DNA of 54,652 nt from Patescibacteria group bacterium (GCA_021735685.1 JAIPGN010000005.1:1-54652), one strand, 5' to 3'. Numbered from the stretch's first letter, positions 8,229-40,267 are shown. The notes: a model not told the origin generated them from the sequence alone. Made by a program: numbers and translations.

Positions 8229-8300
8229 GGGCATGTAGCTCAGAGGTAGAGCACTTGACTTATAATCAAGCGGTCCTGGGTTCGATCCCCAGCATGCCCA
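8229..8300 (+). tRNA. tRNA-Ile (anticodon UAU)
   Basis: GGGCATG/CATGCCC acceptor stem, CTTGA-CT TAT AA-TCAAG anticodon arm, GGTTCGA T-loop, discriminator A, CCA not encoded. Confidence 0.88.
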
Positions 8301-8380
8301 CTCCCTTTCAACAAAAATCACAATGTGGAGGTCAAACCCCCACAACATCCAAGTAAAGAAGAAAAAAATAACACAATAAT

Positions 8381-8623
8381 ATGACCAGAGTTTTGGTAGG
8401 AATTTTAATTACAGCTATTGGTTTTTGGGTAGTCTGGAAATCAGAAAAAGTTTTTCGTTTCTTTGGAAGAAGCGCTTGGGCTGAAAAATATCTTCGCTAC
8501 GAAGGTGGCAGTCATCTATTTTACAAATTAATAGGCATAGCAATTATTTTTCTCGGACTTTTTGTAATTAGCAATATCTGGGCAGATATTATGACAGGAA
8601 TTGCCGGGATTTTTGTACAATAA
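8381..8623 (+). CDS. Hypothetical small membrane protein (2 TM)
   Basis: 80-aa ORF with two hydrophobic helices; stop codon abuts tRNA-Ala. Confidence 0.7.
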   Translation: MTRVLVGILITAIGFWVVWKSEKVFRFFGRSAWAEKYLRYEGGSHLFYKLIGIAIIFLGLFVISNIWADIMTGIAGIFVQ

Positions 8624-8698
8624 GGGCCCGTAGTTCAGTGGCAGAACGCCTCATTTGCAATGAGGAAGTCGGCGGTTCAAATCCGCCCGGGTCCACCA
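8624..8698 (+). tRNA. tRNA-Ala (UGC)
   Basis: GGGCCCG acceptor, CCTCA-TT TGC AA-TGAGG, encoded CCA. Confidence 0.95.
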
Positions 8699-8767
8699 TT
8701 TTAAATTAGTCACCCTAAGGTTGAAAGCAAAAAAATTATCCTTTTTAAGGATATTATTTCTACAATT

Positions 8768-9943
8768 ATGTTAATAACCAATCAACAAATCATTGAGGGG
8801 ATTAATCGTAAAAATAAAAAAAATCCCCTTTGGTATATTACTCGGGAACGAGAGCGGGGCCAAGGACTAGAAAGAGTCCTTGAAAATTACAAAATAATTA
8901 CATCCTCTCAGCCGCAAAGTACTTTTCAAATTATTAAATCTCTGAAAGTAAAACCAAATCAGAAAATTATAGTTTTCAAAAATACTCCCCAAATTCAAAG
9001 AATAGCGCACGAAAAAAATATTAAACTGCTGAACCCTCCGGTGAATTTAGTGGAAAAATACGAAAATAAAATTAGTCAATATCATTGGTTAAAAAAAATT
9101 ATTCCCGATTATCTCCCCTCTACTATTATTACTATTCCTCAAGAAAAAAAATATCTAGAATTAAAAAAAGAAATTGGCGAAAAATTTATCTGCCAATTTA
9201 ATCATGGTCACAGTGGAAAAGGAACTCAAATTATTTCCAATCAGAAAAATTGGGGAAAATTACAAAAAAAATTTCCCAAAAGGCCGGTGCGCCTCTCTCA
9301 ATTAATTGAAGGAGAAAGCTTCACTATCAACGTCTGTCTTTGGGGAGATTGCATCTTGTTGGGTAACCCCAGCTATCAAATTACTGGTTTACCAGAATGC
9401 ACCGACTTTCCTTTTGCTACTATTGGCAACGACTGGCATTATGCCAACCAAAATCTTTCTGCTTCAGATTACAAAAAAATAAAAGCAATTTGCCAAAAAA
9501 TAGGAAAATTCATGAACTCAGATGGATGGCAAGGTTTATTTGGACTAGATTTTGTCAGAAACAAAAAAAAAGATTGGAAGGTAATTGAAGTTAATGCTCG
9601 TCAAGCGGCCTCTGTTAATCTAGAAACAATTTTTCAACAAAAAAGCGGACCAGGCTTAAGTATCTTGACCGCCCATTTCGCTGCTTTACTTAAAATACCT
9701 TTAAGGCTCAACCAGAAACAAATTGAAAGATCAGTGCAAGAAATAAAAGAAGGGGCTCGCATTTTAATTAGAAAAAAGAAAAAACAAAATACCAAAAAAA
9801 TAAAAAAGCTTTGGCCAGAAAGTGAGATCAAGAAAATTAAAATTAACGAAATTATTGGCTCTTGGCCAACCGCCCGTGGCGGATTCATTAAAGTCCACAA
9901 CCAATGGAATTCAAAAGCAAAGGAACTGTTAAGGGAGATGTAG
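8768..9943 (+). CDS. ATP-grasp domain ligase
   Basis: ENK, GHSGKGT glycine loop, GLFGLDF..VIEVNAR (ExN metal motif). Confidence 0.8.
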   Translation: MLITNQQIIEGINRKNKKNPLWYITRERERGQGLERVLENYKIITSSQPQSTFQIIKSLKVKPNQKIIVFKNTPQIQRIAHEKNIKLLNPPVNLVEKYENKISQYHWLKKIIPDYLPSTIITIPQEKKYLELKKEIGEKFICQFNHGHSGKGTQIISNQKNWGKLQKKFPKRPVRLSQLIEGESFTINVCLWGDCILLGNPSYQITGLPECTDFPFATIGNDWHYANQNLSASDYKKIKAICQKIGKFMNSDGWQGLFGLDFVRNKKKDWKVIEVNARQAASVNLETIFQQKSGPGLSILTAHFAALLKIPLRLNQKQIERSVQEIKEGARILIRKKKKQNTKKIKKLWPESEIKKIKINEIIGSWPTARGGFIKVHNQWNSKAKELLREM

Positions 9944-10647
9944 ATAAAGAGAAAAGAAGACTTTCTCTTTCACCTTCAGCCCAAGCAGTAATTAATTCTT
10001 ATCTAAAAATGAAAATTGGCAACAAAATTATTGCTTGCCCTTATTTCATTAATCGGCAAGGCGCAAAAGCTGCCTTGCGTGTTTTTTTAGGAAAAGCCTC
10101 ATCTCAAGAAATTAAAGAAGAGATAGAAATGATCGCTCAACAAAAAGAAATTGATTTAAACCAAATGAGCGAAGAAGAAATCTATCAACTCTTGAAGTCC
10201 AAAAGACTGGGCATTGATTGTTCTGGCCTAGTGGTTCATATCTTAAAAGCGGAATATCAAGAGCGCAAAAATATCAACATTCTCCGCCGAATTTACATTA
10301 CCGCCCCTTGGAAGAATCCTTGGCGTTACTTTATTTCTCGTTTCCGTCCCATTGAAAACATTAGCGTCCGCGTCTTAGCTCATCCTTATAACAGTCGGAT
10401 AGTTAAAAATCCAGAAAAAATTCAAGCTGGAGACTTAATTATCTACCAAAGCCTTAAACATGTTCTTTTAATAGAAGAAATAAAATTAAATCAAGAAAAA
10501 ACTATTAAAGAAATCAAAATTATTCACGCTCAAAGAATGAGCCCCGAAGAAGAAGGAGCTCGAGTTAAAAGAATAACTTACTCTTTTTCTGAATTAAAGA
10601 AAAAAATAGAACAAGGCGAAATAATTCTTCGTCGTTTAAAATTCTAA
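9904..10647 (+). CDS. NlpC/P60-like cysteine peptidase, no signal peptide
   Basis: GIDCSGLV catalytic Cys motif, then AGDLI..KHVLL His. Start uncertain (overlaps the upstream gene by 40 nt). Confidence 0.7.
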   Translation: MEFKSKGTVKGDVDKEKRRLSLSPSAQAVINSYLKMKIGNKIIACPYFINRQGAKAALRVFLGKASSQEIKEEIEMIAQQKEIDLNQMSEEEIYQLLKSKRLGIDCSGLVVHILKAEYQERKNINILRRIYITAPWKNPWRYFISRFRPIENISVRVLAHPYNSRIVKNPEKIQAGDLIIYQSLKHVLLIEEIKLNQEKTIKEIKIIHAQRMSPEEEGARVKRITYSFSELKKKIEQGEIILRRLKF

Positions 10648-10649
10648 AT

Positions 10650-11777
10650 ATGGACTTCTTGTATCAAAATTTATTAACTACCATCCTTTTCTTTATTATC
10701 TTTTCTTCGTTGATTGCTTTTGTTTTAGCGCCCCTGATCATTCATCTACTTTACAAATTGAAGATTCAAAGGAAAATGGAACTAGACCCCTCTTTGCAGG
10801 CAAATCAAAAGAGGGTAAAAAAGGCAGGCACTCCTATCATGGGAGGATTGTTGATTATCATCACTATTTTAATCGTCACCCTGCTTTTTAATTTTGAACA
10901 AAAATTTACCTATGTTCCGATTGGCGTTATGGGTCTCTCCGCGCTCTTGGGAGGAATAGATGACTTACTTAATGTTTTTGGGCAAAAAAGGAAAATTCGT
11001 TCCCTAAAATTAACTCTAAAATTAATTCGCTGCCATCGCAATAAATTTTATCGCCTCTGGCTAATTGTTACTATTCCTTGGATTATTTTTCGCAATACTT
11101 TTTTAATACTCAGCTCGCATCCTACTCGCGGCGTTTTACCTCATGAGAAAATAATTCTTCAACTGATTACTGGCTTAATCACTGCCTGGTGGATAGTCTT
11201 TAAACTCGGCAATCAATGGCTTTATATCTGGGTCCCTTTTAATGGAGAAATTTATCTTGGCTATTGGATGATCCCAGTAGTGGTTTTTACAGTCATGTTT
11301 TTCGCCAATGCTGTTAACATCTCTGATGGCCTAGACGGCTTATCGGGCGGAGTACTTCTTTCTGCCTTTGGCGGTCTAGCAATTATTAGTTTTTTGCAAA
11401 ATAATGCTCATTTTGCCATTTTAAACGCCACAGCTATTGGCGCTTTAATCGCTTATATTTATTTTAATATCAAGCCAGCTCGTTTTCAAATGGGAGACAT
11501 TGGCTCCCTTAGTATGGGCGCTTTGTTTGCGGTAACTGCTTTAGCCCAAAACAGACTTTTAATTATTCCCTTTTTCGGCTTTATTTTTATCGTAGAAATT
11601 TTTTCCGTTATTCTTCAAATCATTTGGCGGCACTTGCTCGGCAAAAGACTCTTCAAGATGGCCCCCTTGCATCATCATTTAGAATGCTTGGGATGGAGTG
11701 AAGAGAAAATAGTAATGCGTTTTTGGATTATTAATTTATTCATGATGTTCTTTGGATTATGGATGGCCATGCCTTAG
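10650..11777 (+). CDS. mraY: Phospho-MurNAc-pentapeptide transferase MraY (with loop insertion)
   Basis: KAGTPIMGG, GIDD, NAVNISDGLDGL, QMGDIGS, KMAPLHHHLE. Confidence 0.9.
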   Translation: MDFLYQNLLTTILFFIIFSSLIAFVLAPLIIHLLYKLKIQRKMELDPSLQANQKRVKKAGTPIMGGLLIIITILIVTLLFNFEQKFTYVPIGVMGLSALLGGIDDLLNVFGQKRKIRSLKLTLKLIRCHRNKFYRLWLIVTIPWIIFRNTFLILSSHPTRGVLPHEKIILQLITGLITAWWIVFKLGNQWLYIWVPFNGEIYLGYWMIPVVVFTVMFFANAVNISDGLDGLSGGVLLSAFGGLAIISFLQNNAHFAILNATAIGALIAYIYFNIKPARFQMGDIGSLSMGALFAVTALAQNRLLIIPFFGFIFIVEIFSVILQIIWRHLLGKRLFKMAPLHHHLECLGWSEEKIVMRFWIINLFMMFFGLWMAMP

Positions 11778-12859
11778 ACAATCAATCCTTTAATTTAAAA
11801 AACAAAAAAGTCCTCATTTACACCGGGGACACTTTTGGTTTAGAAGCTCGAAAAAAATTACCCAGCCGACCCAAAACGGCCGATGGAATTTTGCGTTACG
11901 CCCAATACAATATTGTCGGCCTAGTTGACTCTCATTGCTCAAAAAAATTCACCAACCAAATTCTCCCCGACCTCAAAAATAAAATTCCTATTTTTAAAAC
12001 CATTAACGAAGCACAGAAAAAAACATCTGCCCAAGTTTTAATCATTGGGGTAGCCCCTCAAAAGGGAGAAGTTCCTATGAGTTTTACTCGGGAAATAGTT
12101 AAAGCCTTAGAGAATAATCTCGATTTAGTGAGTGGCTTACATCAGCCGCTTTCTTCTTTTTCCTCTATACTAAAAGCCGCTCAAAAAAACTCTCGAAAAA
12201 TATGGGAAGTACGCTACCCTCCACAAAAATTACCCCTAGCTAGCTGCCAAACTTATAAAATCAAAAAACCAATTATACTTACCATTGGCACTGATGCTGC
12301 CTTGGGTAAATTAACCACCACCTACGAAATGTTCCAAAAGGCACGCGCAAAATATCAAGCAGCCTTAATCCCTACAGGACAAACTAGCGTTATTATTGAA
12401 GGCTGGGGAATCTGCGTTGATAAATGTGCTGGTGATTTTATGGCCGGAGCAGTAGAAAAAATGATTCTCCAAAAAGAAAAACAAGAAAATCCAGACTTAT
12501 ATTTTGTAGAAGGACAAGGTTCCCTTGCTCATCCAGCTTTCTCTACCACGGCTATTGCTTTAATGCATGGTGCCTGCCCCACTCACTTAGTCTTGGTTCA
12601 CCGGCCGGCCCGGAAAAGAATGACTCATTGCTCACTCTTGCCAACACCTAGTATCAAAAAATCTATAGAAATAGCAGAAAAAATAATTCTTCCTTCTTAT
12701 TTGAAAAGTAAAGTAGTAGCTATTAGTTTAAATACTCAAGGGATGAACGATAACGAAGCCAAAGAAGAAATTAAAAAAATAAAAAAAGAAACTAATTTGC
12801 CCACTACTGACCAAATTCGTTTTCCTCAAAATTGGACCGAACTATTCTTGAAAAATTAA
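11759..12859 (+). CDS. DUF1611 family protein (Rossmann-like plus P-loop-like domains)
   Basis: KTADGILRY, IIGVAP..G, LTIGTDAALGKLTT, TGQT, VEGQGSL.HPA..ALMHGA.P pattern. Confidence 0.8.
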   Translation: MDGHALDNQSFNLKNKKVLIYTGDTFGLEARKKLPSRPKTADGILRYAQYNIVGLVDSHCSKKFTNQILPDLKNKIPIFKTINEAQKKTSAQVLIIGVAPQKGEVPMSFTREIVKALENNLDLVSGLHQPLSSFSSILKAAQKNSRKIWEVRYPPQKLPLASCQTYKIKKPIILTIGTDAALGKLTTTYEMFQKARAKYQAALIPTGQTSVIIEGWGICVDKCAGDFMAGAVEKMILQKEKQENPDLYFVEGQGSLAHPAFSTTAIALMHGACPTHLVLVHRPARKRMTHCSLLPTPSIKKSIEIAEKIILPSYLKSKVVAISLNTQGMNDNEAKEEIKKIKKETNLPTTDQIRFPQNWTELFLKN

Positions 12860-12935
12860 ACTATTAAGAATTGAGTACACTAAATCATGTTAATCACTAC
12901 TCAAGAACACTAAGCATTAATATTTTTAAAACTTT

Positions 12936-14345
12936 ATGAAACATATTCATTTTATCGGCATTTGCGGAGTAGGTATGGGATCTTTAGCAATTATGTTCAA
13001 AAAAATGGGATGGAAAGTTACAGGTTCAGATAAAGGATTTTTTTCTCCAATGAGCAATCATTTGCGCCAAGCAAAAATAGATTTTTATCCCGGTTGGCAT
13101 CCAGAAAAAATGAAAAAACCAGATCTAATAGTAATGGGAAACTTTGCTTCTTTACATAATCCAGAATATCTTTACGCTCAAGAAAAAAAAATTACTATTA
13201 AATCTTTCCCCGAATTGGTGCAAGAATATATCATTAAAGAAAACTCCATTGTGGTAACCGGAACCTATGCCAAAACCACCATCACCTCTTTTTTGGCCCA
13301 CCTTTTAAAAATAGCCGAGAAAGACCCCAGTTGGTTTGTGGGTGGTTTAGCTCTTAATCTTGCTAACGGAGCTCACTGTGGTAAAGGTGAATGGAGTATA
13401 GTAGAAGGAGATGAGTACAGCACGGCTCGTTGGGATCTTCGCTCCAAATTTTTCTGGTATCAACCCACTCACCTTTTAATTACTTCTGTAATTTGGGATC
13501 ATTTTGACATTTTTCCTCAGAAAGAAAAATATTTAGACGCTTTTCGAAAATTAACCAAAGCCCTTCCTTCTCATGGTCAAATTTTAGCTAATCAAAAAAC
13601 CAGACCCGATAACCATATTGAAGAAATAATTAAAAAAACTTCATCGCCAGTCAAACGTTATGGAAAATTAAACCCTAAAAACAATAATGATTATTCTTAT
13701 CAAATAAATTCTTTTTCTCCCCAAAAAACTATTTTTACCGTCTATAAAAAAAATCAAGAATGGAGCTCATTTTCCACTAATTTATTTGGGGAACACATGA
13801 TCGAAAATTTAACTGCTGGAATTGCTCTCGGAGACTTAATTGGTATCGAGAAAGAAAAAATAAAAAAAGCAGTATCCTCTTTTCAGGGAGTAAAACGTCG
13901 CCTTGAGCTCCGAGGAAATAAAAAAAATATTTTAATTTTTGACGATTTGGCTCATTCTCCCAGTAAGGCTCAAGGCTCTTTAAAAGCCTTACGGCTATAT
14001 TTCCCTCAGGCCAGAATTATCGCCATCTACGAACCCAATGTCGGTAACCGGACTTTAAGTAGTAAAAAATTTTATCGAGACTCTTTCAATCAAGCTGATT
14101 GGGTTATCATTCCCCGATTATCAAAAACCAAAACTAACGCTCAGCAAGAAAAACGTTTGGACGGCGAAGAACTGGCCAAAACTATTAAAGAAAAAAATAA
14201 AAAAACTCTAAGAGTTTCTTATTTCAATAAAGACGATCAATTGGTTGAATCTGTTAAGAAAAAAGTAAAGCCTCAAGATGTAGTCATCTTCTTGGGCTCA
14301 CACAGTTTCAGAGGAATGATTGAAGAGCTGATAACTGAAATTTAA
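12936..14345 (+). CDS. Mur ligase of the Mpl/MurC type
   Basis: HIHFIGICGVGMGSLA, VTGTYAKTTITS, EGDEY, DHFD, GVKRRLE, DDLAHSP. The GICG start and the DD-x-AH motif resemble Mpl (DDFAHHP). Confidence 0.8.
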   Translation: MKHIHFIGICGVGMGSLAIMFKKMGWKVTGSDKGFFSPMSNHLRQAKIDFYPGWHPEKMKKPDLIVMGNFASLHNPEYLYAQEKKITIKSFPELVQEYIIKENSIVVTGTYAKTTITSFLAHLLKIAEKDPSWFVGGLALNLANGAHCGKGEWSIVEGDEYSTARWDLRSKFFWYQPTHLLITSVIWDHFDIFPQKEKYLDAFRKLTKALPSHGQILANQKTRPDNHIEEIIKKTSSPVKRYGKLNPKNNNDYSYQINSFSPQKTIFTVYKKNQEWSSFSTNLFGEHMIENLTAGIALGDLIGIEKEKIKKAVSSFQGVKRRLELRGNKKNILIFDDLAHSPSKAQGSLKALRLYFPQARIIAIYEPNVGNRTLSSKKFYRDSFNQADWVIIPRLSKTKTNAQQEKRLDGEELAKTIKEKNKKTLRVSYFNKDDQLVESVKKKVKPQDVVIFLGSHSFRGMIEELITEI

Positions 14346-14346
14346 G

Positions 14347-14511
14347 TTATTTTCCTTCGTCAATTACCTCTAAGTCAACACGTTCACCATTAATGCTGGT
14401 CACTTCTAGGGTAACACCACAAGTGTTACACTCGATAATGCTCCCCTCTTCTATTTCTGAAGGATCGTCAACATTAATATTGTTTTTACATTCTGGGCAA
14501 AATAATTTCAT
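14347..14511 (-). CDS. LysW-like zinc-ribbon small protein (amino-group-carrier fold), C-terminus DEGK
   Basis: Manual translation MKLFCPECKNNINVDDPSEIEEGSIIECNTCGVTLEVTSINGERVDLEVIDEGK (54 aa): CPEC..CxxCG.TLEV, acidic. Missed by the ORF track. Confidence 0.8.
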   Translation of the reverse strand: MKLFCPECKNNINVDDPSEIEEGSIIECNTCGVTLEVTSINGERVDLEVIDEGK

Positions 14512-14551
14512 ATTAATATTTTAGAAAAAAAGAATTTAATGTCAAGCTTTC

Positions 14552-15430
14552 ATGAAGTCGACTCCGCAAAAAAAATATCCCAATCTGGCTCAAATCCTAA
14601 AAGTTCCTGAAGTTTGGATCAAAGAAGAATACCTTAATAAGTCCGGTTCTCATAAAATCAGATTAATTAATTTTCTTTTTCAAAAATATGTTCGTCAAGG
14701 AAAAAAAGATTTTACCATCTCTTCTTCCGGGAATGCCGCAATTGCCGCAGCCTATTATCTCCAGAAAATCAAAAACCCTCAACTGAATTTAAGTATTTTT
14801 ATTTCGCCTCAAATTGAAAAATCTAAATGGCAACGTTTACTTAAGGTTTGCAATTCTTCTCCGCAAATAAAAATTAAAAAAGCTCGAAGACCAAAACAAG
14901 AAGCCTTTATTTTTGCCCAAAAAAATAAAGCTATTTTTTTACGAGGATCAACCGAGCCACAAGCTGAAAAAGCTTATAAGGGCCTAGGTCAAGAAATGCA
15001 AAAAATTCCCAACCTACAAGCCATTTTTGTTCCTACTTCTTCGGGTCTAACCGCTTTAGGGGTTTCTTCTGCTCTTTCTCAAACAAAGAACAAAACAGAA
15101 ATTCATATTGTGCAAACTGCCAAAATTCATCCTTTTTCTGCAAACTTTGACTCTGAATTTAATCCTCAAGAGACCTCTTTGGCTTCGGCTATTGTGGATC
15201 AAGTCGGAAAAAGAAAAAAAGAAATTATAGAAATGGTCAAAAGAACAAAAGGTTGGGGCTGGACAATTAACGACCAAGAATTAAAAAATGCCCGAAAAAT
15301 TGTTGAATTAAATACAAACCTTGGTAAAATAAACTATGACAGTCTTTTATCAATCGCTGGACTAATCAAAGCGCAAAAAAATGGATGGAATTTTGAAAGA
15401 CCAGTTTGTTGCCTTTTTACCGGAATTTAG
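14552..15430 (+). CDS. PLP-dependent fold-type II enzyme (threonine/cysteine synthase-like)
   Basis: KEEYLNKSGSHK (Schiff-base Lys), SSSGNAA, VPTSSG phosphate loop, C-terminal TG. Confidence 0.8.
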   Translation: MKSTPQKKYPNLAQILKVPEVWIKEEYLNKSGSHKIRLINFLFQKYVRQGKKDFTISSSGNAAIAAAYYLQKIKNPQLNLSIFISPQIEKSKWQRLLKVCNSSPQIKIKKARRPKQEAFIFAQKNKAIFLRGSTEPQAEKAYKGLGQEMQKIPNLQAIFVPTSSGLTALGVSSALSQTKNKTEIHIVQTAKIHPFSANFDSEFNPQETSLASAIVDQVGKRKKEIIEMVKRTKGWGWTINDQELKNARKIVELNTNLGKINYDSLLSIAGLIKAQKNGWNFERPVCCLFTGI

Positions 15431-15452
15431 GATATTAAAATAAATTTAATTT

Positions 15453-16748
15453 ATGAATCTAGAAATTAAGGGAGACAAAAAATTAAAAGGAACGGTAGTC
15501 ACCAATACCTCTAAAAATGCCGCTATGGGCTTAATGGCTGCTAGCCTTTTAAACAAGGGAACAACTCTTTTGCGACAAGTACCAAAAATTGAAGAGGTTA
15601 ACAGAATGATTGAAGTTTTGAGTAGTTTGGGAGTAAAGATACAATGGGTTCAAGACAATAATTTAAAAATTATCCCTCCTTCAAAAATATCTTTAGAAAA
15701 ACTTAATAAAAAATCAGCTATTAAAACTAGAAGTATTATCATGCTTTTGGGTCCGCTGATCCATGAATTCAAAAAATTCAAATTACCCCAACCGGGCGGT
15801 TGCAAGCTTGGTCGCCGCACTGTACGTCCTCACTTGTTTGCCTTGGAAAATCTAGGAGTTAAAATCGAAACCCGCTCCAAATATTATGAAGTTGCTCGCC
15901 AAAAACTAAAAGCTGCGGAAATAGTTCTTTACGAATCTGGAGACACCACCACGGAAAACGTTATTATGGCCGCCGCCAAAATTCCAGGCAAAACTACAAT
16001 TAAATTAGCTTCAGCCAACTATCAGGTTCAAGATCTTTGTCATTTTCTTTCTCTTTTGGGAGTTAAAATTAAGGGCATTGGCACCACCACTCTTACTATC
16101 AATGGTCAGCCAGAAATTCACAAAAATATAGAATATCATTTAAGCGAAGATCCAATAGAAAGTATGTTTTTTTTAGCAGTGAGCGCCACCACCAACTCTC
16201 CTTTATTGATCAAAAGATGTCCGATTGATTTCCTTGAGCTAGAGCTTCTAAAACTAGAGAAAATGAATTTTAAATTCAAAATAATTAAGAGATATAAGGC
16301 TAAAAATAAATTTACTAACCTAGTAGATATTAAAACTTATCCTTCTCAATTACAAGCCTTAGAGGAAAAAATATACGCCCGACCCTTTCCTGGTCTAAAT
16401 ATTGATAATTTGCCCTTTTTTGTACCCATCGCCACTCAAGCTAAAGGACAAACTCTTATTCACGACTGGGTTTACGAACATCGAGCCATTTATTATACTG
16501 AATTATCAAAACTAGGAGCAAAAATAATTTTAGCCGACCCTTACCGAGTTTACATTGATGGCCCCAGCAAACTTAAAGCTGCGGAAATTATTTGCCCTTC
16601 TGCTCTCCGGCCAGCAACAATTATACTTATCGCCATGCTCAATGCTAAGGGAACCTCAATTTTACGCAACATCTATTCTATTAATCGTGGTTACGAAAAT
16701 CTGAGCGAACGCTTGAATAATTTAGGGGCAGAAATTAAAATAATATAA
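15453..16748 (+). CDS. murA: UDP-N-acetylglucosamine 1-carboxyvinyltransferase
   Basis: SKNAA, PGGCKLGRR (catalytic Cys), TENVIMAA, PFPG, RGYE. Confidence 0.92.
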   Translation: MNLEIKGDKKLKGTVVTNTSKNAAMGLMAASLLNKGTTLLRQVPKIEEVNRMIEVLSSLGVKIQWVQDNNLKIIPPSKISLEKLNKKSAIKTRSIIMLLGPLIHEFKKFKLPQPGGCKLGRRTVRPHLFALENLGVKIETRSKYYEVARQKLKAAEIVLYESGDTTTENVIMAAAKIPGKTTIKLASANYQVQDLCHFLSLLGVKIKGIGTTTLTINGQPEIHKNIEYHLSEDPIESMFFLAVSATTNSPLLIKRCPIDFLELELLKLEKMNFKFKIIKRYKAKNKFTNLVDIKTYPSQLQALEEKIYARPFPGLNIDNLPFFVPIATQAKGQTLIHDWVYEHRAIYYTELSKLGAKIILADPYRVYIDGPSKLKAAEIICPSALRPATIILIAMLNAKGTSILRNIYSINRGYENLSERLNNLGAEIKII

Positions 16749-16840
16749 AAACCGTTAAAAAATTGACGCTTTTAAAAAATCACCCCAAAAAACCTTTCTC
16801 TGAGTAGTTTTTAAAGAAGCAGTTTTTGGGGTCTGGTCCC
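16748..16840 (+). repeat. Dispersed intergenic repeat ending in the GGGGTCTGG(T/C)CCC palindrome
   Basis: CGTTAAAAAATTGACGCTTTT..GAAGCAGTTTTTGGGGTCTGGTCCC; homologous to 26547-26694 and to the reverse strand of 52344-52578. Confidence 0.8.
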
Positions 16841-16865
16841 AATTAAATTAACTAATTTTATTTAT

Positions 16866-17429
16866 ATGTCTGGAGAAAAAAAACAAATTGTCAAAGACAA
16901 TGTAGTTGACGCTCGTAGCCTTTTAGAAGAAGCGGGCTTAGAGGAAAAAATGACTGTAGCTGATTTGGGCTGTGGTAGCCGCGGTTATTTTGCCATTCAA
17001 GCCGCCAAACTTATTGGAGAAGACGGATTAGTTTATGCCGTAGACATTGTAAAGCCAGCCCTCAAAAACGTTCAAAACACGGCTCATCTTTTCGGAATCA
17101 CAAATTTAAGAACAGTTTGGGGAGACTTAGAACGGCCCCAAGCCATTAAAATTCCCGCAGAAAGCTTAGATTTAGCCATGCTTAACAATATGCTTTTTCA
17201 AAACCAAAAAATAGAAGAAATTATTAAAGAAGCGACTCGTCTCTTGAAAAAACAGGGTAAACTTTTGATTACTGACTGGAAAAAAATAAAAACTCCCTTA
17301 GGACCGCCCTTAGAAAACCGCATCTCCCCAGAAGAAGTTAAAAAAAATGCCGAAAAAGCGAACCTTCAATATCAAAAAGAGTTAATAGCTGGTCCCTATC
17401 ATTATGCCTTAATGTTTGTTAAAAAATAG
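16866..17429 (+). CDS. Class I SAM-dependent methyltransferase
   Basis: VADLGCGSRG motif I, YAVDI, DLAML, LLITDW. Confidence 0.85.
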   Translation: MSGEKKQIVKDNVVDARSLLEEAGLEEKMTVADLGCGSRGYFAIQAAKLIGEDGLVYAVDIVKPALKNVQNTAHLFGITNLRTVWGDLERPQAIKIPAESLDLAMLNNMLFQNQKIEEIIKEATRLLKKQGKLLITDWKKIKTPLGPPLENRISPEEVKKNAEKANLQYQKELIAGPYHYALMFVKK

Positions 17430-24024: not shown

Positions 24025-24957
24025 TTATTCTTCTTGTTCTTGAAAATTCTTAGCTTCTTTCTCTTGTTGCGTTGCCCACCAAATCAAGGATTTAGCCTCT
24101 TGAAATCTATTCTCGTTGCTATCCGCCCCTAAAACTATTACAATCAACTTTTGGTCATCATAATTACTTACGCCGGCAAAACAATAACCACTAGCATCTA
24201 AATAACCAGTTTTGGCACCCTCAATTTTAATAAAATTTCCTAAAAGTTGATCGGTGTTATAGACCCGTTGATAAAGAGCGCGCCCGTTTCTTTTCAATTC
24301 TAAATCATAAGTAGCCTGTGACAGGGCTTCTTTAATTTCCTTATGTTGAAAAGCAGCTCGCACTAGCTTGGTTAAATCCCGAGCGCTGGAACGATTAGAA
24401 GAGCTTAAGCCAGTTGGTTCCAAAAAATAAGTATCTCGCATTCCCAACTCTTGAGCCTTTTCATTCATTAAGTCAGCAAAATTTTGACCGCAACAAACCA
24501 CTGTTCTCGCTAAAATCTTACTGGCATTATTAGCCGATCGAATCAAGCCAGAATTGAAAACGTCCCGCAAGGTCAGTTCATCTCCAATTAAAACATCTAA
24601 TAAGGCTGGCTGCATTTCTTCGCCACCCCCTTTATTAGTAAATTTAATCAAATCCTGTTCGGAAACTTGAATAATTTCATTCCAGTCTTTTTTATTGTTT
24701 TCCAAAAAAACCAAAGCAGTCATTAGTTTACTAATACTGGCAATGGGTAAAATTTCTTCAGAATTCTTTTCAAACAAAATCTTCCCCGAATTAAAATCCA
24801 CAACCAAAGCACTGCGGGCGCTTAATTTAGGACCCAAAGAATAAGAAGAATTAATTTCAGGGCCTGAGCTTTCAATTAAATTATTCCAAGTGATGACTTC
24901 TTGATAAAGAGGAGAGGCTGACAGAAAAAAAATTGTAGCTAAAATCGAAAAAAGCAT
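24025..24957 (-). CDS. S11 family D-alanyl-D-alanine carboxypeptidase/endopeptidase
   Basis: PIASISK (SxxK), RSANN (SxN), AKTGY (KTG); signal peptide. Confidence 0.9.
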   Translation of the reverse strand: MLFSILATIFFLSASPLYQEVITWNNLIESSGPEINSSYSLGPKLSARSALVVDFNSGKILFEKNSEEILPIASISKLMTALVFLENNKKDWNEIIQVSEQDLIKFTNKGGGEEMQPALLDVLIGDELTLRDVFNSGLIRSANNASKILARTVVCCGQNFADLMNEKAQELGMRDTYFLEPTGLSSSNRSSARDLTKLVRAAFQHKEIKEALSQATYDLELKRNGRALYQRVYNTDQLLGNFIKIEGAKTGYLDASGYCFAGVSNYDDQKLIVIVLGADSNENRFQEAKSLIWWATQQEKEAKNFQEQEE

Positions 24958-24965
24958 AATCAGTT

Positions 24966-25922
24966 TTATTTTTTAAAAATTTTGCCCACCCGATAAAGAT
25001 TATACCAAAAACTAGAGAAAGGTAAATCAAAGGTGCCGGGATAAGTGACTTGGCGACAACCAAAGTTCATTTTAAATTTCGTTAAACCTGGCCATTTTTG
25101 AGAATCAATCCCCCAAAAATCATAATACTCGCATTTATTATTGTTGGCAATTCGAATGGCCTCCCAATGTAAAAGATGAGGGGCCATCACCTGTGAAAAC
25201 TCACGAGAAGAACCACCGTGCACATAAAAAGCCCTTTGATTAAAAAAAATAACTAAATGAGCAGCTAAAATTTTATCCAAATAACGAGCTAGATACAATT
25301 TACTTTGGGAAAGATTTAATAATTCTCGATAATATTCAAAATCATGGATTTGAAATTCTTCCCTCTTGGCGGTTTCTTGTAAAAGTCTCCAAAAGCAATC
25401 TAAGCTTTGACTTTCTTCAATTTCCACCCCTTTTCTCTGAGCTAAACGAATGTTATAACGGGTTTTAGAGTGCATAGCTGATAAAAGATCGGCTTCCTTC
25501 TTTTGTAAATCCAAAAAAGCAGTCTGGCTAGGCTGAACATCTGAAGTTTTTTTTATTTTCAAAGAAAGACTTATCTCTTTCAAGGGCTCAAAACGAAAAA
25601 AAATCGCTTTTTCTTGATCAGCCAAAACCTTAATTTGTTTAAAGAAAAAATCAAGAGTAACTTGACCAGAAACATCTTGAAAAAAGGGACCACGCGGACA
25701 ATATAAATAACCAAAACCCAAGGGAAGAGAATTTTTAATTATTAGAGCCTGAACCAAGGTTTTGTTTTTCTCCTGCACGGCTAAGCGCCAAATTTTCCTT
25801 CCCATTTTTTTTTGAAAATCTCCCCACTCCCAAGATTGTAAAAACTGATCACCAGTTTGCCAATTTTCTTTTTCCTGAATCTCTCTAATTTCCATAAATA
25901 AATCTAATTTTATTTTTGTCAA
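24966..25922 (-). CDS. FemABX family peptidoglycan bridge peptidyltransferase
   Basis: FLQSWEWG, YCPRGP, KTRYNIRLAQRKGV, YDFWGI, GLTKFK. Confidence 0.88.
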   Translation of the reverse strand: MTKIKLDLFMEIREIQEKENWQTGDQFLQSWEWGDFQKKMGRKIWRLAVQEKNKTLVQALIIKNSLPLGFGYLYCPRGPFFQDVSGQVTLDFFFKQIKVLADQEKAIFFRFEPLKEISLSLKIKKTSDVQPSQTAFLDLQKKEADLLSAMHSKTRYNIRLAQRKGVEIEESQSLDCFWRLLQETAKREEFQIHDFEYYRELLNLSQSKLYLARYLDKILAAHLVIFFNQRAFYVHGGSSREFSQVMAPHLLHWEAIRIANNNKCEYYDFWGIDSQKWPGLTKFKMNFGCRQVTYPGTFDLPFSSFWYNLYRVGKIFKK

Positions 25923-33570: not shown

Positions 33571-34502
33571 TTATCCATTTACTAACCATTGTCCTGGCCT
33601 CAATCTCCTTGGTTAAGGCCGCTCAATGGACAATTAATGCTTTGGTTTATTTAGCTCGCCGGCTAAGATTATCTAAATTTGTGATCGCCTTTGTGCTGGC
33701 CAGCTTTGCTAGCTCTTTGCCAGAATTTTTCGTGGGCATCTCAGCCGCCCTTGACCAAAAATCAATTCTTTCTCTCTCTAATGTTTTTGGTTCTAATATA
33801 GCTAACATCACTCTTGTTTTGGGACTTAGCGTTCTTTTGGTCAAAGGTCTTAAAATTAAAACCAAAACTATTCAAAGAAACATTATTTATACTCTTTTGC
33901 TTCTTTTCTACTCTGTTCTTCTGTGCTTAGATGGAGTCCTGTCACGCTTAGACGGAGTTGCTTTATTAATCAGCTTTACTTTATACAACATCATCTTAAT
34001 TTACCAGAATAAAGACCGCCGCCAAATTATTGAAAAAGCTAAAAAAGGAGAAACTTTTTATCAAATTTTAAAATTCATTCTAAGTATCTCCCTTCTTCTT
34101 CTAAGCTCAAAAATTATTGTGGAAACTTCCCAAAAACTAGCAGAAACAATTAATATCCCCCTTTTTATTGTTGGTCTCTTAGTAATAGCTGTCGGAACTT
34201 CTTTGCCAGAATTAATATTTGGCCTCCAGGCAATTCGAGGAAAGCACAAAGATATGATTTTAGGATCTCTTCTCGGCTCAACTATTGTTAATTCTACGGC
34301 AGTCATAGGCTTAACCGCCATTATTTACCCTATTACCATTCAAGAAAATAACCTCTTTCTAATAAGTGTTGCTTTTATGTTAGGCACTTATATTCTCTTC
34401 GCTGTTTTCTCTCGCTCTCATGAAAAGATTTCTTGGGGAGAGGCACTAATTCTAGTTTTTTCTTATGTGACTTTTATTATTGTCCAATTTTTGATAAAAT
34501 AA
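33567..34502 (+). CDS. Ca2+/Na+ antiporter (CaCA, YrbG-like)
   Basis: Two alpha repeats SSLPE..GSNIAN and GTSLPE..GSTIVN. Confidence 0.9.
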   Translation: MIIHLLTIVLASISLVKAAQWTINALVYLARRLRLSKFVIAFVLASFASSLPEFFVGISAALDQKSILSLSNVFGSNIANITLVLGLSVLLVKGLKIKTKTIQRNIIYTLLLLFYSVLLCLDGVLSRLDGVALLISFTLYNIILIYQNKDRRQIIEKAKKGETFYQILKFILSISLLLLSSKIIVETSQKLAETINIPLFIVGLLVIAVGTSLPELIFGLQAIRGKHKDMILGSLLGSTIVNSTAVIGLTAIIYPITIQENNLFLISVAFMLGTYILFAVFSRSHEKISWGEALILVFSYVTFIIVQFLIK

Positions 34503-34540
34503 AAAAAATAAAAAAAGAATATCTAAAATAAATTATCTTT

Positions 34541-35842: not shown

Positions 35843-35844
35843 AA

Positions 35845-39180: not shown

Positions 39181-39230
39181 TTTTAAAATAATGGACAAAG
39201 GGTCTTTTTTGTGCTAAAGTGAAAATGTGG

Positions 39231-39303
39231 GGCCAGGTAGCCAAGTGGCTAAGGCGTCGGTCTGCAAAACCGATATACACGGGTTCGACTCCCGTCCTGG
39301 CCT
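39231..39303 (+). tRNA. tRNA-Cys (GCA)
   Basis: GGCCAGG/CCTGGCC acceptor, TCGGT-CT GCA AA-ACCGA, U discriminator. Confidence 0.93.
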
Positions 39304-39334
39304 TTTTTTAATCTCCAAGAAGAGGTATATTTTT

Positions 39335-40264: not shown

Positions 40265-40267
40265 AAA

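What the first reader, a model, noticed from the sequence alone, without database searches (positions are those of the whole stretch)
8768..16748. Candidate undescribed cell-wall peptide pathway: ATP-grasp + NlpC/P60 + MraY + DUF1611 + Mpl-like ligase + LysW-like carrier + PLP enzyme + MurA
Seen: four overlapping or abutting genes (ATP-grasp, NlpC/P60, mraY, DUF1611), then an Mpl/MurC-like ligase, a small zinc-ribbon gene, and a PLP enzyme-murA pair. MurD/E/F/G and ddl are absent from the window. Knowledge: MurA, a Mur ligase and MraY bracket lipid I synthesis; ATP-grasp ligases load amino acids onto LysW-type carriers; cytoplasmic NlpC/P60 (YkfC-type) and Mpl act in murein peptide recycling. 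Inference: a CPR module that salvages host muropeptides and/or builds a non-canonical stem or bridge peptide on a protein carrier, then feeds it to UDP-MurNAc and a specialised MraY. This would fit an auxotrophic episymbiont.
Basis: partly seen in the sequence, partly recalled or inferred. Interest (0 to 1): 0.88.

Follow-up and report, generated by a model that had tools for sequence, protein, structure and literature searches.

The report
Cell-wall operon with lysine-tailed carrier protein
This is the ordinary cell-wall precursor operon of a tiny Patescibacteria (CPR) bacterium, but it carries a conserved, undescribed four-gene module built around a small LysW-like protein that always ends in lysine. 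The module probably makes or delivers an unusual amino acid for the cell wall.

Summary
All eight genes are real and sit at the stated coordinates. The arrangement is not chance: it recurs in more than 120 Patescibacteria loci, even where protein identity falls to 25–40%.

It is not a free-standing salvage module. It is a variant of the mur/dcw operon. MraY, MurA and probably the MurC/Mpl-family ligase are the housekeeping enzymes. murB, murD, murE, murF, ftsW, murG and ftsA/Z flank the same genes in related genomes.

The new part is an invariant quartet:
- **Carrier-like protein:** an acidic zinc-ribbon protein related to LysW. Its C-terminus is always Lys (…DEGK or …EEK) instead of LysW's Glu.
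- **PLP enzyme:** fold-type II, from the ThrC/dehydratase/racemase wing.
- **ATP-grasp ligase:** a sequence-novel family with a PurK/biotin-carboxylase-like fold.
- **Cytoplasmic NlpC/P60 cysteine hydrolase.**

A second unit pairs the Mpl-like ligase with an upstream "slot" gene. That slot holds an arginyltransferase-like gene in most lineages and DUF1611 in the window's clade.

My best guess is a load–modify–unload cycle on the carrier's terminal Lys that supplies a D-form or otherwise unusual acidic amino acid for peptidoglycan. I put the carrier cycle at about 0.4 and the specific cargo at about 0.2.

No canonical ddl was seen in any locus. Whether ddl, alr or murI are absent genome-wide could not be tested here.

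The parts
8768..9943 (+). ATP-grasp ligase of a sequence-novel, Patescibacteria-restricted family; first gene of the operon
   Evidence: PF02655 E=3e-6. The Mg/ATP motif E274-x-N276-x-R278 and K101 are invariant in 72 homologs. The AF2 model has pLDDT 94.8 and its best folds are PurK/biotin carboxylase/PurD at TM~0.6. A profile search finds no PDB relative below E=0.019. There are no Ddl, LysX or RimK HMM hits.
9904..10647 (+). Cytoplasmic NlpC/P60-type cysteine hydrolase with a conserved N-terminal domain (CPYFxN...AALRV); overlaps the ATP-grasp gene by 40 nt
   Evidence: C106/H186/H208 are conserved in 84 homologs. Pfam scores 19 bits (sub-threshold). HHalign against MepS gives 85%. No hydrophobic segment. 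Adjacent to the ATP-grasp in 83 of 85 loci.
10650..11777 (+). MraY (phospho-MurNAc-pentapeptide translocase), most likely the housekeeping copy
   Evidence: TIGR00445 188.5 bits, PF00953 E=5e-25. DDLLN104 and HHH341 are present. 46-88% identity across 68 loci.
11759..12859 (+). DUF1611 protein, a distant relative of the D-glutamate N-acetyltransferase DgcN. It fills the 'slot' upstream of the ligase that holds an ATE_C-like gene in most other lineages
   Evidence: PF07755 E=2e-57, and NF041892 DgcN 214 bits against a 480 cutoff. PDB 2obn E=7e-55. The slot holds ATE in 47 loci and DUF1611 in 5, never both.
12936..14345 (+). MurC/Mpl-family UDP-MurNAc ligase of a distinct clade (motif EPNVGNRT)
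   Evidence: murC 283/335 and mpl 246/389 bits. Top PDB hit 3hn7, followed by MurCs. Closer to E. coli Mpl than MurC in 56 of 56 loci, sharing two indels with Mpl. Co-varies with the upstream slot gene.
14347..14511 (-). 54-aa acidic LysW-like zinc-ribbon protein with the invariant C-terminus ...DEGK-COOH; candidate carrier protein
   Evidence: PF21344 41.9 bits, and carrier_LysW_Arch E=2e-11. Terminal Lys in 54 of 55 homologs. Tails are DEGK/EEGK/EEEK/..EEK, while true LysW (EDWGE) appears only as weaker hits.
14518..14545 (-). Promoter-like site for the small gene (TTGACA-16-TAAAAT)
   Evidence: Best sigma-70-like match (11 of 12) in 8300-17000, and 7 nt upstream of the start codon. This is a consensus match only.
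14552..15430 (+). Fold-type II PLP enzyme (PALP) with PLP-Lys35 and an invariant SSSGNAA loop; divergent from the small gene
   Evidence: PF00291 E=8e-30. K35, S57-S59, G60 and R131 are invariant in 64 homologs. AF2 pLDDT 94.6. Foldseek gives ThrC 0.84, Thr/Ser dehydratases 0.82-0.84 and Ser/Asp racemases 0.80-0.83, against CysK/SbnA 0.73-0.76.
15453..16748 (+). MurA (UDP-GlcNAc enolpyruvyl transferase); a neighbour of the module only in the window's clade and in compact dcw clusters
   Evidence: NF006873 340 bits, above the 297 cutoff. GGC-KLG active-site Cys visible in the translation.

Best explanation
**What it is.** The region is the mur (peptidoglycan-precursor) operon of a Patescibacteria lineage. 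MurA, MraY and the MurC/Mpl-family ligase do the ordinary lipid-I steps, together with murB, murD, murE and murF encoded nearby or elsewhere.

**What is new.** A conserved four-protein module is embedded in the operon. I propose it works as a load-modify-unload cycle on a carrier protein:
1. The ATP-grasp ligase activates a carboxyl group of an amino acid. My best guess is the side-chain carboxyl of Glu or Asp. It joins that group as an amide to the epsilon-amino group of the carrier's invariant C-terminal Lys.
2. This leaves the cargo's alpha-amino and alpha-carboxyl groups free, so the fold-II PLP enzyme can act on the alpha-carbon. Epimerisation to the D-form is the most likely reaction.
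3. The cytoplasmic NlpC/P60 cysteine hydrolase belongs to a family specialised in gamma-D-glutamyl-Lys/DAP amide bonds. It releases the product, or transfers it, for use in the stem peptide or its bridge.

This would be LysW logic with reversed polarity: a Lys-NH2 handle instead of a Glu-COOH handle.

**Second unit.** An acyl/aminoacyl-transferase 'slot' gene (ATE-like, or DUF1611 here) is paired with the Mpl-like ligase. It probably acts on the free alpha-amine of an acidic residue.

**Shown:** gene identities, the conservation of the module and of the Lys terminus, intact catalytic residues, and the fold classes.
**Inferred:** every chemical step and the cargo.

**Rough probabilities.** Housekeeping mur operon with an undescribed conserved module: 0.9. 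Carrier-based load-modify-unload cycle: 0.4. Cargo is an acidic amino acid converted to its D-form: 0.2.
For: - **Synteny.** The genes are syntenic across 86 genome loci and 36 metagenome loci, in three operon arrangements.
- **Carrier homology.** The zinc ribbon is homologous to LysW (PF21344 above threshold; LysW/ArgW carrier model E=2e-11). Genuine EDWGE-tailed LysW proteins appear as weaker hits in the exhaustive search.
- **Carrier features.** It is acidic (window protein 13 D/E vs 4 K/R; homolog cores median net -4). Its terminal Lys is kept in 54 of 55 homologs, including the most divergent ones.
- **LysW precedent.** Known LysW systems combine a carrier, an ATP-grasp loader and a hydrolase that unloads (PMC12998189). 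All three classes are present here and always linked.
- **Active enzymes.** The ATP-grasp keeps its ATP/Mg residues. NlpC/P60 keeps its Cys-His-His triad. PALP keeps its PLP-Lys and carboxylate-binding loop.
- **PLP fold class.** PALP is structurally nearer the racemase/dehydratase/ThrC wing than the CysK-type beta-replacement enzymes.
- **NlpC/P60 link.** Two non-orthologous cytoplasmic NlpC/P60 forms associate with the module.
- **Acidic-residue theme.** Three accessory genes come from families that act on acidic residues: ATE/Bpt-like, DgcN-like DUF1611 (PMC12363236), and S51 PepE-like in L004. murD, the D-Glu-adding step, abuts the PALP/carrier pair in 42% of loci.
- **No ddl.** No canonical ddl was found in any locus, even in full dcw clusters.
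Against: - There is no biochemical evidence, and no structure of any complex.
- The ATP-grasp is not related to LysX/RimK. Its nearest folds (PurK, biotin carboxylase) say nothing about a protein substrate.
- The PLP enzyme is equally close to threonine synthase and to dehydratases, so racemase activity is a guess.
- Known NlpC/P60 enzymes cut gamma-Glu linked to the alpha-amine of Lys/DAP, not to an epsilon-amine.
- In the window-type operon, the carrier gene is adjacent to PALP but about 5 kb from the ATP-grasp.
- I could not test whether these genomes lack murI, alr or ddl, which is the motive for such a pathway.
- Tethering a cargo just to racemise it has no precedent.
Confidence: 0.4

Rival explanations
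1. **Non-orthologous Ddl and racemase.** The PLP enzyme is a free-amino-acid racemase, replacing Alr. The ATP-grasp is a D-Ala-D-Ala (or D-Ala-D-X) ligase, replacing Ddl. The zinc ribbon and NlpC/P60 are accessory or regulatory, for example a specificity subunit and a proofreading dipeptidase.
For: - The two enzyme classes match exactly what a dcw cluster needs but lacks here. No canonical ddl appears in more than 120 loci, including complete rsmH...ftsZ clusters.
- In compact clusters, PALP and the ATP-grasp sit just upstream of ftsW/murG/ftsA/ftsZ.
- The window encodes an S11 DD-carboxypeptidase, which implies D-Ala-D-Ala-type termini.
- PALP is close to fold-II Ser/Asp racemases (TM 0.80-0.83).
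Against: - It gives no role to the invariant Lys terminus of the LysW-like protein, or to the obligatory and often overlapping NlpC/P60 gene.
- The ATP-grasp shows no Ddl-specific similarity. The best DdlB match is E~1e-5, which is generic.
- ddl may simply lie elsewhere in these genomes (untested).
Confidence: 0.2
2. **Bridge or side-chain building.** The ATP-grasp adds a D-acidic amino acid (D-Asp or D-Glu), made by the PLP racemase, onto the epsilon-amine of residue 3 of the nucleotide precursor just before MraY. This follows the E. faecium D-aspartate ligase plus racemase operon, which I recall from my own knowledge. The ATE-like enzyme then extends the branch's free alpha-amine, or DUF1611 caps it. 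The Lys-tailed zinc ribbon mimics or shuttles the acceptor.
For: - The ATP-grasp-NlpC-MraY order is the most conserved unit.
- ATE/Bpt and DgcN families both act on the alpha-amine of acidic residues, and they occupy one slot.
- FemAB genes lie nearby in the window, L004 and L091.
- The carrier's N-alpha-acylated C-terminal Lys resembles the Lys of UDP-MurNAc-tripeptide (inference).
Against: - The roles of the zinc ribbon and NlpC/P60 remain ad hoc.
- The similarity to the D-aspartate ligase could not be tested, because no reference sequence was available.
- A bridge modification would not be expected to be this universally conserved alongside core mur genes.
Confidence: 0.15
3. **Muropeptide salvage.** Imported host stem peptides are trimmed by the cytoplasmic NlpC/P60, and by an amidohydrolase or S51/M16 peptidases in some lineages. 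The Mpl-like ligase then re-ligates them to UDP-MurNAc. DUF1611 handles the released D-Glu.
For: - The ligase is closer to E. coli Mpl than to MurC and shares Mpl's indels.
- A cytoplasmic NlpC/P60 is the YkfC-type arrangement.
- Extra peptidases occur in some loci (M16 in L001, S51 in L004, amidohydrolase in L126/L097).
- DgcN-family enzymes act on D-Glu.
Against: - The clusters hold no peptide transporter, LD-carboxypeptidase or Ala-Glu epimerase.
- The genes are embedded among de novo synthesis genes (murA, B, D, E, F), and no second MurC is visible. If this ligase did only salvage, MurD would have no substrate.
- NCBIfam scores murC above mpl.
- Salvage does not explain the carrier, the PLP enzyme or the ATP-grasp.
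Confidence: 0.1
4. **Terminal-residue cycle.** NlpC/P60 removes the C-terminal Lys and the ATP-grasp re-adds it, as vasohibin and tubulin-tyrosine ligase do with tubulin's encoded Tyr. While Lys is N-alpha-protected on the protein, the PLP enzyme alkylates its epsilon-amine by beta-replacement with Ser or phospho-Ser. The released product is a diamino-dicarboxylic acid that serves as a DAP surrogate for MurE.
For: - The encoded terminal residue is invariant, while position -1 varies (G/E/K).
- Precedent exists for a fold-II PLP enzyme working with a small carrier (CysM-CysO) and for a fold-II enzyme making a DAP surrogate (Fusobacterium lanthionine synthase). Both are from my own knowledge.
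- L004's MurE keeps the Arg of the DNPR motif (EDPR), which reads a distal carboxylate.
Against: - PALP is structurally less similar to the beta-replacement wing (CysK/SbnA TM 0.73-0.76) than to the racemase/dehydratase wing.
- The product would be three atoms longer than DAP.
- It gives no explanation for the accessory enzymes specific to acidic residues.
Confidence: 0.07

Closest known systems
LysW/ArgW amino-group carrier protein system (LysW + LysX/ArgX ATP-grasp + LysZ/Y/J + LysK hydrolase) of Thermus and archaea
   Same: - A small, acidic zinc-ribbon protein homologous to LysW.
- Obligatory genomic linkage to an ATP-grasp ligase, a cargo-modifying enzyme and an amide hydrolase.
- A strictly conserved C-terminal residue preceded by acidic residues.
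   Different: - The terminal residue is Lys (an amine handle), not Glu (a carboxyl handle).
- The ATP-grasp is not of the LysX/RimK family.
- The modifying enzyme is a fold-II PLP enzyme rather than a kinase/reductase/aminotransferase.
- The hydrolase is NlpC/P60 rather than M20.
- The context is the peptidoglycan operon of amino-acid-auxotrophic CPR bacteria rather than Lys/Arg biosynthesis.
Canonical dcw/mur cluster (mraZ-rsmH-ftsL-ftsI-murE-murF-mraY-murD-ftsW-murG-murC-murB-ddl-ftsQAZ)
   Same: It contains mraY, a murC-family ligase, murA/murB/murD/murE, ftsW, murG and ftsA/Z in related loci. The module sits between mraY or murD and ftsW in the compact forms.
   Different: - ddl is never seen.
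- murF and murD are missing from the compact clusters.
- Five non-canonical genes are inserted: the carrier, PALP, the ATP-grasp, NlpC/P60, and ATE-like or DUF1611.
Mpl (murein peptide ligase) with YkfC-type cytoplasmic NlpC/P60 recycling enzymes
   Same: The ligase resembles Mpl in pairwise scores and indels. The NlpC/P60 protein is cytoplasmic.
   Different: - Both the murC and mpl equivalog cutoffs are missed.
- It appears to be the only MurC-type ligase in the clusters.
- No recycling partners are present (LdcA/YkfA, YkfB epimerase, transporter).
Glutathionylspermidine synthetase/amidase and the tubulin tyrosine ligase/vasohibin pair (from my own knowledge)
   Same: An ATP-grasp-type ligase is coupled to a papain-like cysteine amidase that acts on the same amide bond. 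In tubulin, the cycled residue is the genetically encoded C-terminal one.
   Different: These are unrelated proteins with unrelated substrates. Here the two activities are separate, translationally coupled genes, joined by a PLP enzyme.
DgcN/DgcA irreversible racemisation pathway for D-acidic amino acids
   Same: DUF1611 belongs to the DgcN family. The concept of derivatise, then racemise, then hydrolyse parallels the proposed cycle.
   Different: - The window protein is far below the DgcN cutoff (214 vs 480 bits).
- No DgcA-type racemase is present.
- DUF1611 occurs only in the window's clade and is replaced by an ATE-like gene elsewhere.

Membership tests
LysW/ArgW amino-group carrier protein | Zinc-ribbon globular domain homologous to LysW | tested here: met
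   PF21344 scores 41.9 bits (GA 27). carrier_LysW_Arch E=2e-11 and TIGR01206 E=7e-7, both below their equivalog cutoffs. True LysW proteins appear among the phmmer hits.
LysW/ArgW amino-group carrier protein | C-terminal Glu (EDWGE tail) whose gamma-carboxyl holds the cargo's amino group | tested here: not met
   The terminal residue is Lys in 54 of 55 homologs and in all tail variants (DEGK, EEGK, EEEK, xEEK). LysW uses its C-terminal Glu (PMC12998189).
LysW/ArgW amino-group carrier protein | Partner ATP-grasp of the LysX/ArgX (RimK) family and LysZ/Y/J/K enzymes in the neighbourhood | tested here: not met
   The window ATP-grasp has no rimK_fam or LysX hit at E<0.01. No LysZ/Y/J/K homologs were found in any locus.
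LysW/ArgW amino-group carrier protein | Covalent loading of cargo on the C-terminal residue | not testable with these tools
   Needs mass spectrometry or in vitro reconstitution.
MurC (UDP-MurNAc:L-Ala ligase) | Equivalog HMM score and three Mur-ligase domains | tested here: inconclusive
   All three domains are present. TIGR01082 scores 283 bits, below the 335 cutoff. It lacks the QPH..RT motif seen in the canonical-type MurC of L095-L098 and has EPNVGNRT instead.
Mpl (murein tripeptide ligase) | Equivalog HMM score; preference for tri/tetrapeptide substrate | tested here: inconclusive
   TIGR01081 scores 246 bits, below the 389 cutoff. Even so, it is closer to E. coli Mpl than to MurC (181 vs 136 bits) and shares two indels with Mpl. 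Substrate preference cannot be tested here.
MraY | GT4 fold, DDxxD/N Mg site, MraY-specific HHH loop, equivalog score | tested here: met
   PF00953 E=5e-25. DDLLN104 and HHH341 are present. TIGR00445 scores 188.5 against a cutoff of 192.05, marginally below.
MurA | HMM above cutoff; active-site Cys loop | tested here: met
   NF006873 scores 340.5, above the 297 cutoff. 'PGGCKLGRR' is visible in the translation.
NlpC/P60 cysteine peptidases | Cys-His-His/Glu catalytic triad in the papain-like core | tested here: met
   GIDCSG (C106), H186 and H208 are conserved in 84 homologs. HHalign against MepS gives 85% over the His-His half. Pfam scores 19 bits, below the GA of 23.
D-Ala-D-Ala ligase (Ddl) | Dala_Dala_lig_N/C domains | tested here: not met
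   No Ddl Pfam or NCBIfam hit for the ATP-grasp. phmmer with E. coli DdlB gives at best E=9e-6 on two homologs. Foldseek's top 50 hits are PurK, BC and PurD.
DgcN (D-glutamate N-acetyltransferase) | Equivalog score; DUF1611 N and C domains | tested here: inconclusive
   Both DUF1611 domains hit strongly. NF041892 scores 214 bits, below the 480 cutoff.
Fold-type II PLP racemases (Ser/Asp racemase) | PALP fold with PLP-Lys and a second catalytic base (Ser of the SSGN loop); racemase activity | tested here: inconclusive
   K35 and the SSSGN loop are invariant, but human serine dehydratase has the same loop. TM is 0.80-0.83 to racemases and equal or higher to ThrC and dehydratases.
YkfABCD-type murein peptide recycling | LD-carboxypeptidase, L-Ala-D/L-Glu epimerase and peptide transporter alongside the NlpC/P60 endopeptidase | tested here: not met
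   None of these appeared among the annotated genes of any surveyed locus.

The most novel reading that the evidence does not exclude
The Lys-terminated LysW relative is the first 'carboxyl-group carrier protein'. It would be a reversed-polarity version of the LysW system in which an ATP-grasp enzyme tethers an amino acid through a carboxyl group to the carrier's C-terminal Lys. A PLP enzyme edits the cargo while it is tethered, and a cytoplasmic NlpC/P60 enzyme releases or transfers it.

Together with an aminoacyl-tRNA-dependent (ATE-like) or DUF1611 transferase and an Mpl-like ligase that attaches a pre-made peptide to UDP-MurNAc, this would be a non-canonical route to part of the peptidoglycan stem peptide. 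It would replace murI/ddl, and in some lineages murD/murF, in a large group of Patescibacteria.
Probability: 0.25. Interest if true: 0.9.

Novelty: new variant of a known kind. Interest (0 to 1): 0.74.

Why it matters
Peptidoglycan precursor synthesis is among the best-charted and most conserved pathways in bacteria, and it is a major antibiotic target. A conserved extra module inside the mur/dcw operon of hundreds of Patescibacteria species would be a real addition to that pathway. It includes a carrier-like protein with a new kind of functional terminus.

It could explain how these auxotrophic, host-dependent bacteria obtain D-amino acids or other special building blocks for their walls.

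It would also extend the LysW carrier principle beyond lysine and arginine synthesis.

All the proteins are small and soluble, so the hypothesis can be tested directly in vitro.

Tried and rejected
- **Possible dcw cluster at 30979-41260 in the window.** Rejected. It encodes a P-type ATPase, a Ca/Na antiporter, AsnRS, AspRS, FtsX, QueA, a 5'-3' exonuclease and HolA.
- **MurD-bypass as a general explanation.** Weakened. A divergent but genuine murD (MurD-like_N domain) abuts the cluster in 23-25 loci.
- **PLP subfamily assignment from sequence and structure.** Unresolved among ThrC, dehydratase and racemase.
- **Word-indexed homolog search for the 54-aa protein.** It found one hit. The exhaustive HMMER search was needed instead.
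- **L056 'MraY' next to mraZ/rsmH.** It is only a weak GT4 hit and says nothing about a second MraY.
- **Literature searches** for DUF1611+peptidoglycan, LysW+Patescibacteria, LysW+peptidoglycan+ATP-grasp, 'LysW-like', and CPR+ddl found no prior description.
- **Genome-wide presence or absence of ddl, alr, murI, murC and murF** in genomes that carry the module. 

Full report
**1. The observation**

| Gene | Coordinates | Key evidence |
|---|---|---|
| ATP-grasp | 8768-9943 (+) | PF02655 |
| NlpC/P60-like | 9904-10647 (+) | Pfam sub-threshold, catalytic triad conserved |
| MraY | 10650-11777 (+) | TIGR00445 188.5 vs cutoff 192 |
| DUF1611 | 11759-12859 (+) | PF07755 E=2e-57 |
| MurC/Mpl-family ligase | 12936-14345 (+) | three Mur-ligase domains |
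| LysW-like zinc ribbon, 54 aa | 14347-14511 (-) | PF21344 above threshold |
| Fold-type II PLP enzyme (PALP) | 14552-15430 (+) | PF00291 E=8e-30 |
| MurA | 15453-16748 (+) | NF006873 above cutoff |

- The first four genes overlap or abut: a 40-nt overlap, a 2-nt gap and a 19-nt overlap.
- The NlpC/P60 call rests on more than the weak Pfam hit (19 bits). The GIDCSG Cys, H186 and H208 are conserved in 84 homologs. HHalign against E. coli MepS gives 85% probability over the His-His half.
- The rest of the window is housekeeping: RuvA/B, NusA, trigger factor, AlaRS, DnaB, AsnRS, AspRS, FtsX, QueA, ClpP, YidC and others.
- The window contains no murD/E/F/G, ddl, alr or murI. It does contain FtsW/RodA, an LCP protein, an S11 DD-carboxypeptidase and a FemAB enzyme, so the organism makes a peptidoglycan wall.

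**2. Conservation**

The ATP-grasp family is restricted to Patescibacteria. The large protein database holds 103 cluster representatives, labelled Parcubacteria, Magasanikbacteria or Dojkabacteria where named. 422 GTDB species genomes encode a relative.

I surveyed 86 loci with my own ORF calls and phmmer. Among the 55 loci with at least 8.5 kb downstream:

| Gene | Share of loci |
|---|---|
| NlpC-like | 100% |
| MraY | 96% |
| Ligase | 93% |
| Zinc ribbon | 93% |
| PALP | 89% |
| ATE_C-like (arginyltransferase-like) | 85% |
| DUF1611 | 9% (never together with ATE) |
| murD, downstream and convergent | 42% (MurD-like_N domain) |
| murB, upstream and divergent | 31% |

DUF1611 and MurA are therefore specific to the window's clade, not core members.

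A second scan with divergent family members retrieved 36 metagenome loci. They show two further arrangements.
- **Compact dcw cluster:** rsmH-ftsI-murE-ATE-ligase-(murA)-mraY-NlpC-carrier-PALP-ATP-grasp-ftsW-murG-ftsA-ftsZ.
- **murD-type cluster:** mraY-amidohydrolase-NlpC/P60-...-murD-carrier-PALP-ATP-grasp-ftsW-murG-murC-murB.

L004 additionally shows MurE, a divergent MurF, FemAB and MurG beside the module. So the cluster is a variant of the mur/dcw operon, not a separate pathway.

**3. The conventional members**

- **MraY.** It has the DDxxN Mg site and the HHH loop, and is 46-88% identical across 68 loci. That is far more constrained than its neighbours, and no second copy appears in any locus. 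I read it as the housekeeping MraY.
- **MurA.** It passes its curated cutoff.
- **The ligase.** This is ambiguous.
  - NCBIfam scores murC at 283 and mpl at 246 bits, both below cutoff.
  - The best PDB match is 3HN7, which from my own knowledge is the Psychrobacter Mpl deposited under a MurC name. Gammaproteobacterial MurCs follow closely.
  - Against the E. coli pair, all 56 cluster ligases score higher to Mpl (mean 177 vs 121 bits), and they share two indels with Mpl.
  - The family has its own motif, EPN(V/I)GNRT, where MurC has QPH..RT.
  - The Mpl-like ligases almost always have the ATE-like or DUF1611 gene directly upstream (65 of 67). The three loci with a canonical-type MurC (MurC score above Mpl, QPHQHNRT) have none. 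Only about two of those three are independent, so lineage effects cannot be excluded.
  - Because it is the only MurC-type ligase seen beside murB, murD and murE, it most likely fills the MurC step. A different substrate, such as a pre-made dipeptide, is not excluded.

**4. The unconventional quartet**

*(a) The small protein*
- It is a true LysW relative (PF21344 above threshold; LysW/ArgW carrier model E=2e-11).
- It is acidic: 13 D/E against 4 K/R.
- Its C-terminus is D-E-G-K in 52 of 55 homologs of the window type.
- In the exhaustive search of 1.84 billion representatives, the tails were DEGK x23, EEGK x3, EEEK x8 and DDKK x1. Genuine LysW proteins ending in EDWGE appeared as weaker hits.
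- The divergent loci end in xEEK. The terminal Lys is kept in 54 of 55 homologs.
- In LysW, the cargo is attached to the C-terminal Glu by the ATP-grasp LysX and removed by LysK (PMC12998189). Here the handle is an amine, not a carboxyl.
- The gene is always on the opposite strand, wedged between the ligase and PALP. Here the gaps are 1 nt and 40 nt. The best sigma-70-like match of the whole region lies just upstream of it.

*(b) PALP*
- It keeps the PLP lysine and an invariant SSSGNAA loop.
- Its AF2 model (pLDDT 94.6) is closest to threonine synthase (TM 0.84), Thr/Ser dehydratases (0.82-0.84) and Ser/Asp racemases (0.80-0.83).
- It is less close to the CysK/SbnA beta-replacement enzymes (0.73-0.76).

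*(c) The ATP-grasp*
- It keeps its nucleotide/Mg residues and models with pLDDT 94.8.
- It has only generic PurK/biotin-carboxylase/PurD neighbours and no Ddl, LysX/RimK or glutathione-synthetase signal.

*(d) NlpC/P60*
- It is cytoplasmic and translationally coupled to the ATP-grasp.
- In the murD-type loci, a different and more canonical cytoplasmic NlpC/P60 (Pfam E=2.5e-21) takes its place, together with an amidohydrolase. This argues that the activity itself is what is required.

**5. Mechanism**

A LysW-family protein with an invariant terminal residue, an ATP-dependent amide ligase, a cargo-modifying enzyme and an amide hydrolase together match the logic of amino-group carrier proteins. 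But the terminal Lys reverses the polarity.

My preferred model runs as follows:
1. The ATP-grasp acyl-phosphorylates a carboxyl of the cargo and links it to the carrier's Lys epsilon-amine.
2. That leaves the cargo's alpha-amino acid moiety free, which a PLP enzyme needs.
3. PALP then acts at the alpha-carbon, most simply by epimerisation.
4. NlpC/P60 comes from a family known for gamma-D-Glu-Lys/DAP bonds. It releases or transfers the product.

An acidic cargo (Glu or Asp) is suggested by three accessory families that act on acidic residues:
- ATE/Bpt-like transferases, whose acceptor is an N-terminal Asp or Glu.
- An S51 PepE-like peptidase in L004.

The frequent adjacency of murD points the same way.

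All chemical steps are inference. I put about 0.4 on a carrier-based cycle and about 0.2 on the acidic-D-amino-acid cargo.

**6. Rivals**

1. PALP and the ATP-grasp are non-orthologous replacements of Alr and Ddl (0.2). This is attractive because no ddl is found in any of the 120+ loci, even at relaxed thresholds. It leaves the carrier and NlpC/P60 unexplained.
2. A bridge-building system like the D-aspartate ligase plus racemase of enterococci (0.15).
4. A terminal-Lys removal and re-addition cycle that produces a DAP surrogate (0.07).

**7. Novelty and limits**

No paper in the searchable library describes this module.

I file it as a new variant of a known kind. It uses the LysW-type carrier logic in a mur operon, with a defining feature of the LysW family (the terminal Glu) tested and not met.

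The decisive gap is a genome-wide census of ddl, alr, murI, murC, murD and murF in genomes that carry the module. Biochemical reconstitution is also needed.

Noticed in passing
window 8229-8301: A tRNA-Ile with anticodon UAU (tat). Most bacteria instead use a lysidine-modified CAU tRNA to read AUA. This may mean the organism lacks TilS.
   Followed up: no
window 14345-14552; also L-loci: The small carrier gene is wedged antisense into the + strand operon, 1 nt from the ligase stop and 40 nt from the PALP start. In other genomes its 3' end overlaps the ligase's 3' end by 20-32 nt. The best promoter-like site of the region (TTGACA-16-TAAAAT, 14545-14518, minus strand) drives it. Read-through of the operon would be antisense to it, which may be a form of regulation.
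   Followed up: partly
window 24025-25922 (-): An adjacent FemAB-family aminoacyl-tRNA transferase and an S11 DD-carboxypeptidase. They imply a branched stem peptide with D-Ala-D-Ala-type termini in this organism.
   Followed up: no
window 39227-40264 and tRNA-Cys 39230-39304: The mechanical ORF for the 5'-3' exonuclease (GTG start at 39227) overlaps a tRNA-Cys on the same strand. The HMM alignment starts near residue 37, so the true start is probably downstream of the tRNA.
   Followed up: no
P0065, P0084, P0091, P0095-P0097; L005 1220-2848; L091 9397-9834: In several Magasanikbacteria the ATP-grasp is fused to a C-terminal NUDIX hydrolase domain, and a separate NUDIX gene lies near the module in L091. 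This hints that a nucleotide-linked substrate or by-product is involved.
   Followed up: no
L005 7810-8721: A second, RimK/LysX-like ATP-grasp (rimK_fam E=5e-11, LysX_arch E=4e-8) lies between the ATE-like gene and the ligase in one Magasanikbacteria locus. It is the only LysX-type enzyme seen near the LysW-like protein.
   Followed up: no
P0228, P0245, P0258, P0268: Proteins of 272-447 aa that contain 4-7 tandem copies of the LysW-like zinc ribbon turned up in the exhaustive search. Their nature is unknown.
   Followed up: no
L003 3275-6526: In one relative, an EcoRV-like restriction-modification pair plus SMODS and SLATT genes (a CBASS-like defence set) is inserted just upstream of the ATP-grasp, between it and ruvB.
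   Followed up: no
L004 18115-19377: The MurE next to the module lacks the usual N-terminal domain (420 aa, aligned from profile position 67). It has EDPR where DAP-type MurE has DNPR, so the Arg that reads a distal carboxylate is kept.
   Followed up: partly
L126 2489-5266; L097 3-2221: In the murD-type arrangement, a 550-aa amidohydrolase and a canonical cytoplasmic NlpC/P60 (with a ~185-aa N-terminal region) lie between mraY and murD. The amidohydrolase is 94% identical between two samples.
   Followed up: partly
L007-L086 record titles: Many GTDB MAG records that carry this Patescibacteria-type cluster are titled 'uncultured Gammaproteobacteria bacterium' or 'Candidatus Saccharibacteria'. 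These titles are unreliable as taxonomy.
   Followed up: no
window 35845-37266: The AspRS is only 473 aa and matches the bacterial model in two stretches, so it seems to lack the usual insertion domain. It sits directly after an AsnRS.
   Followed up: no
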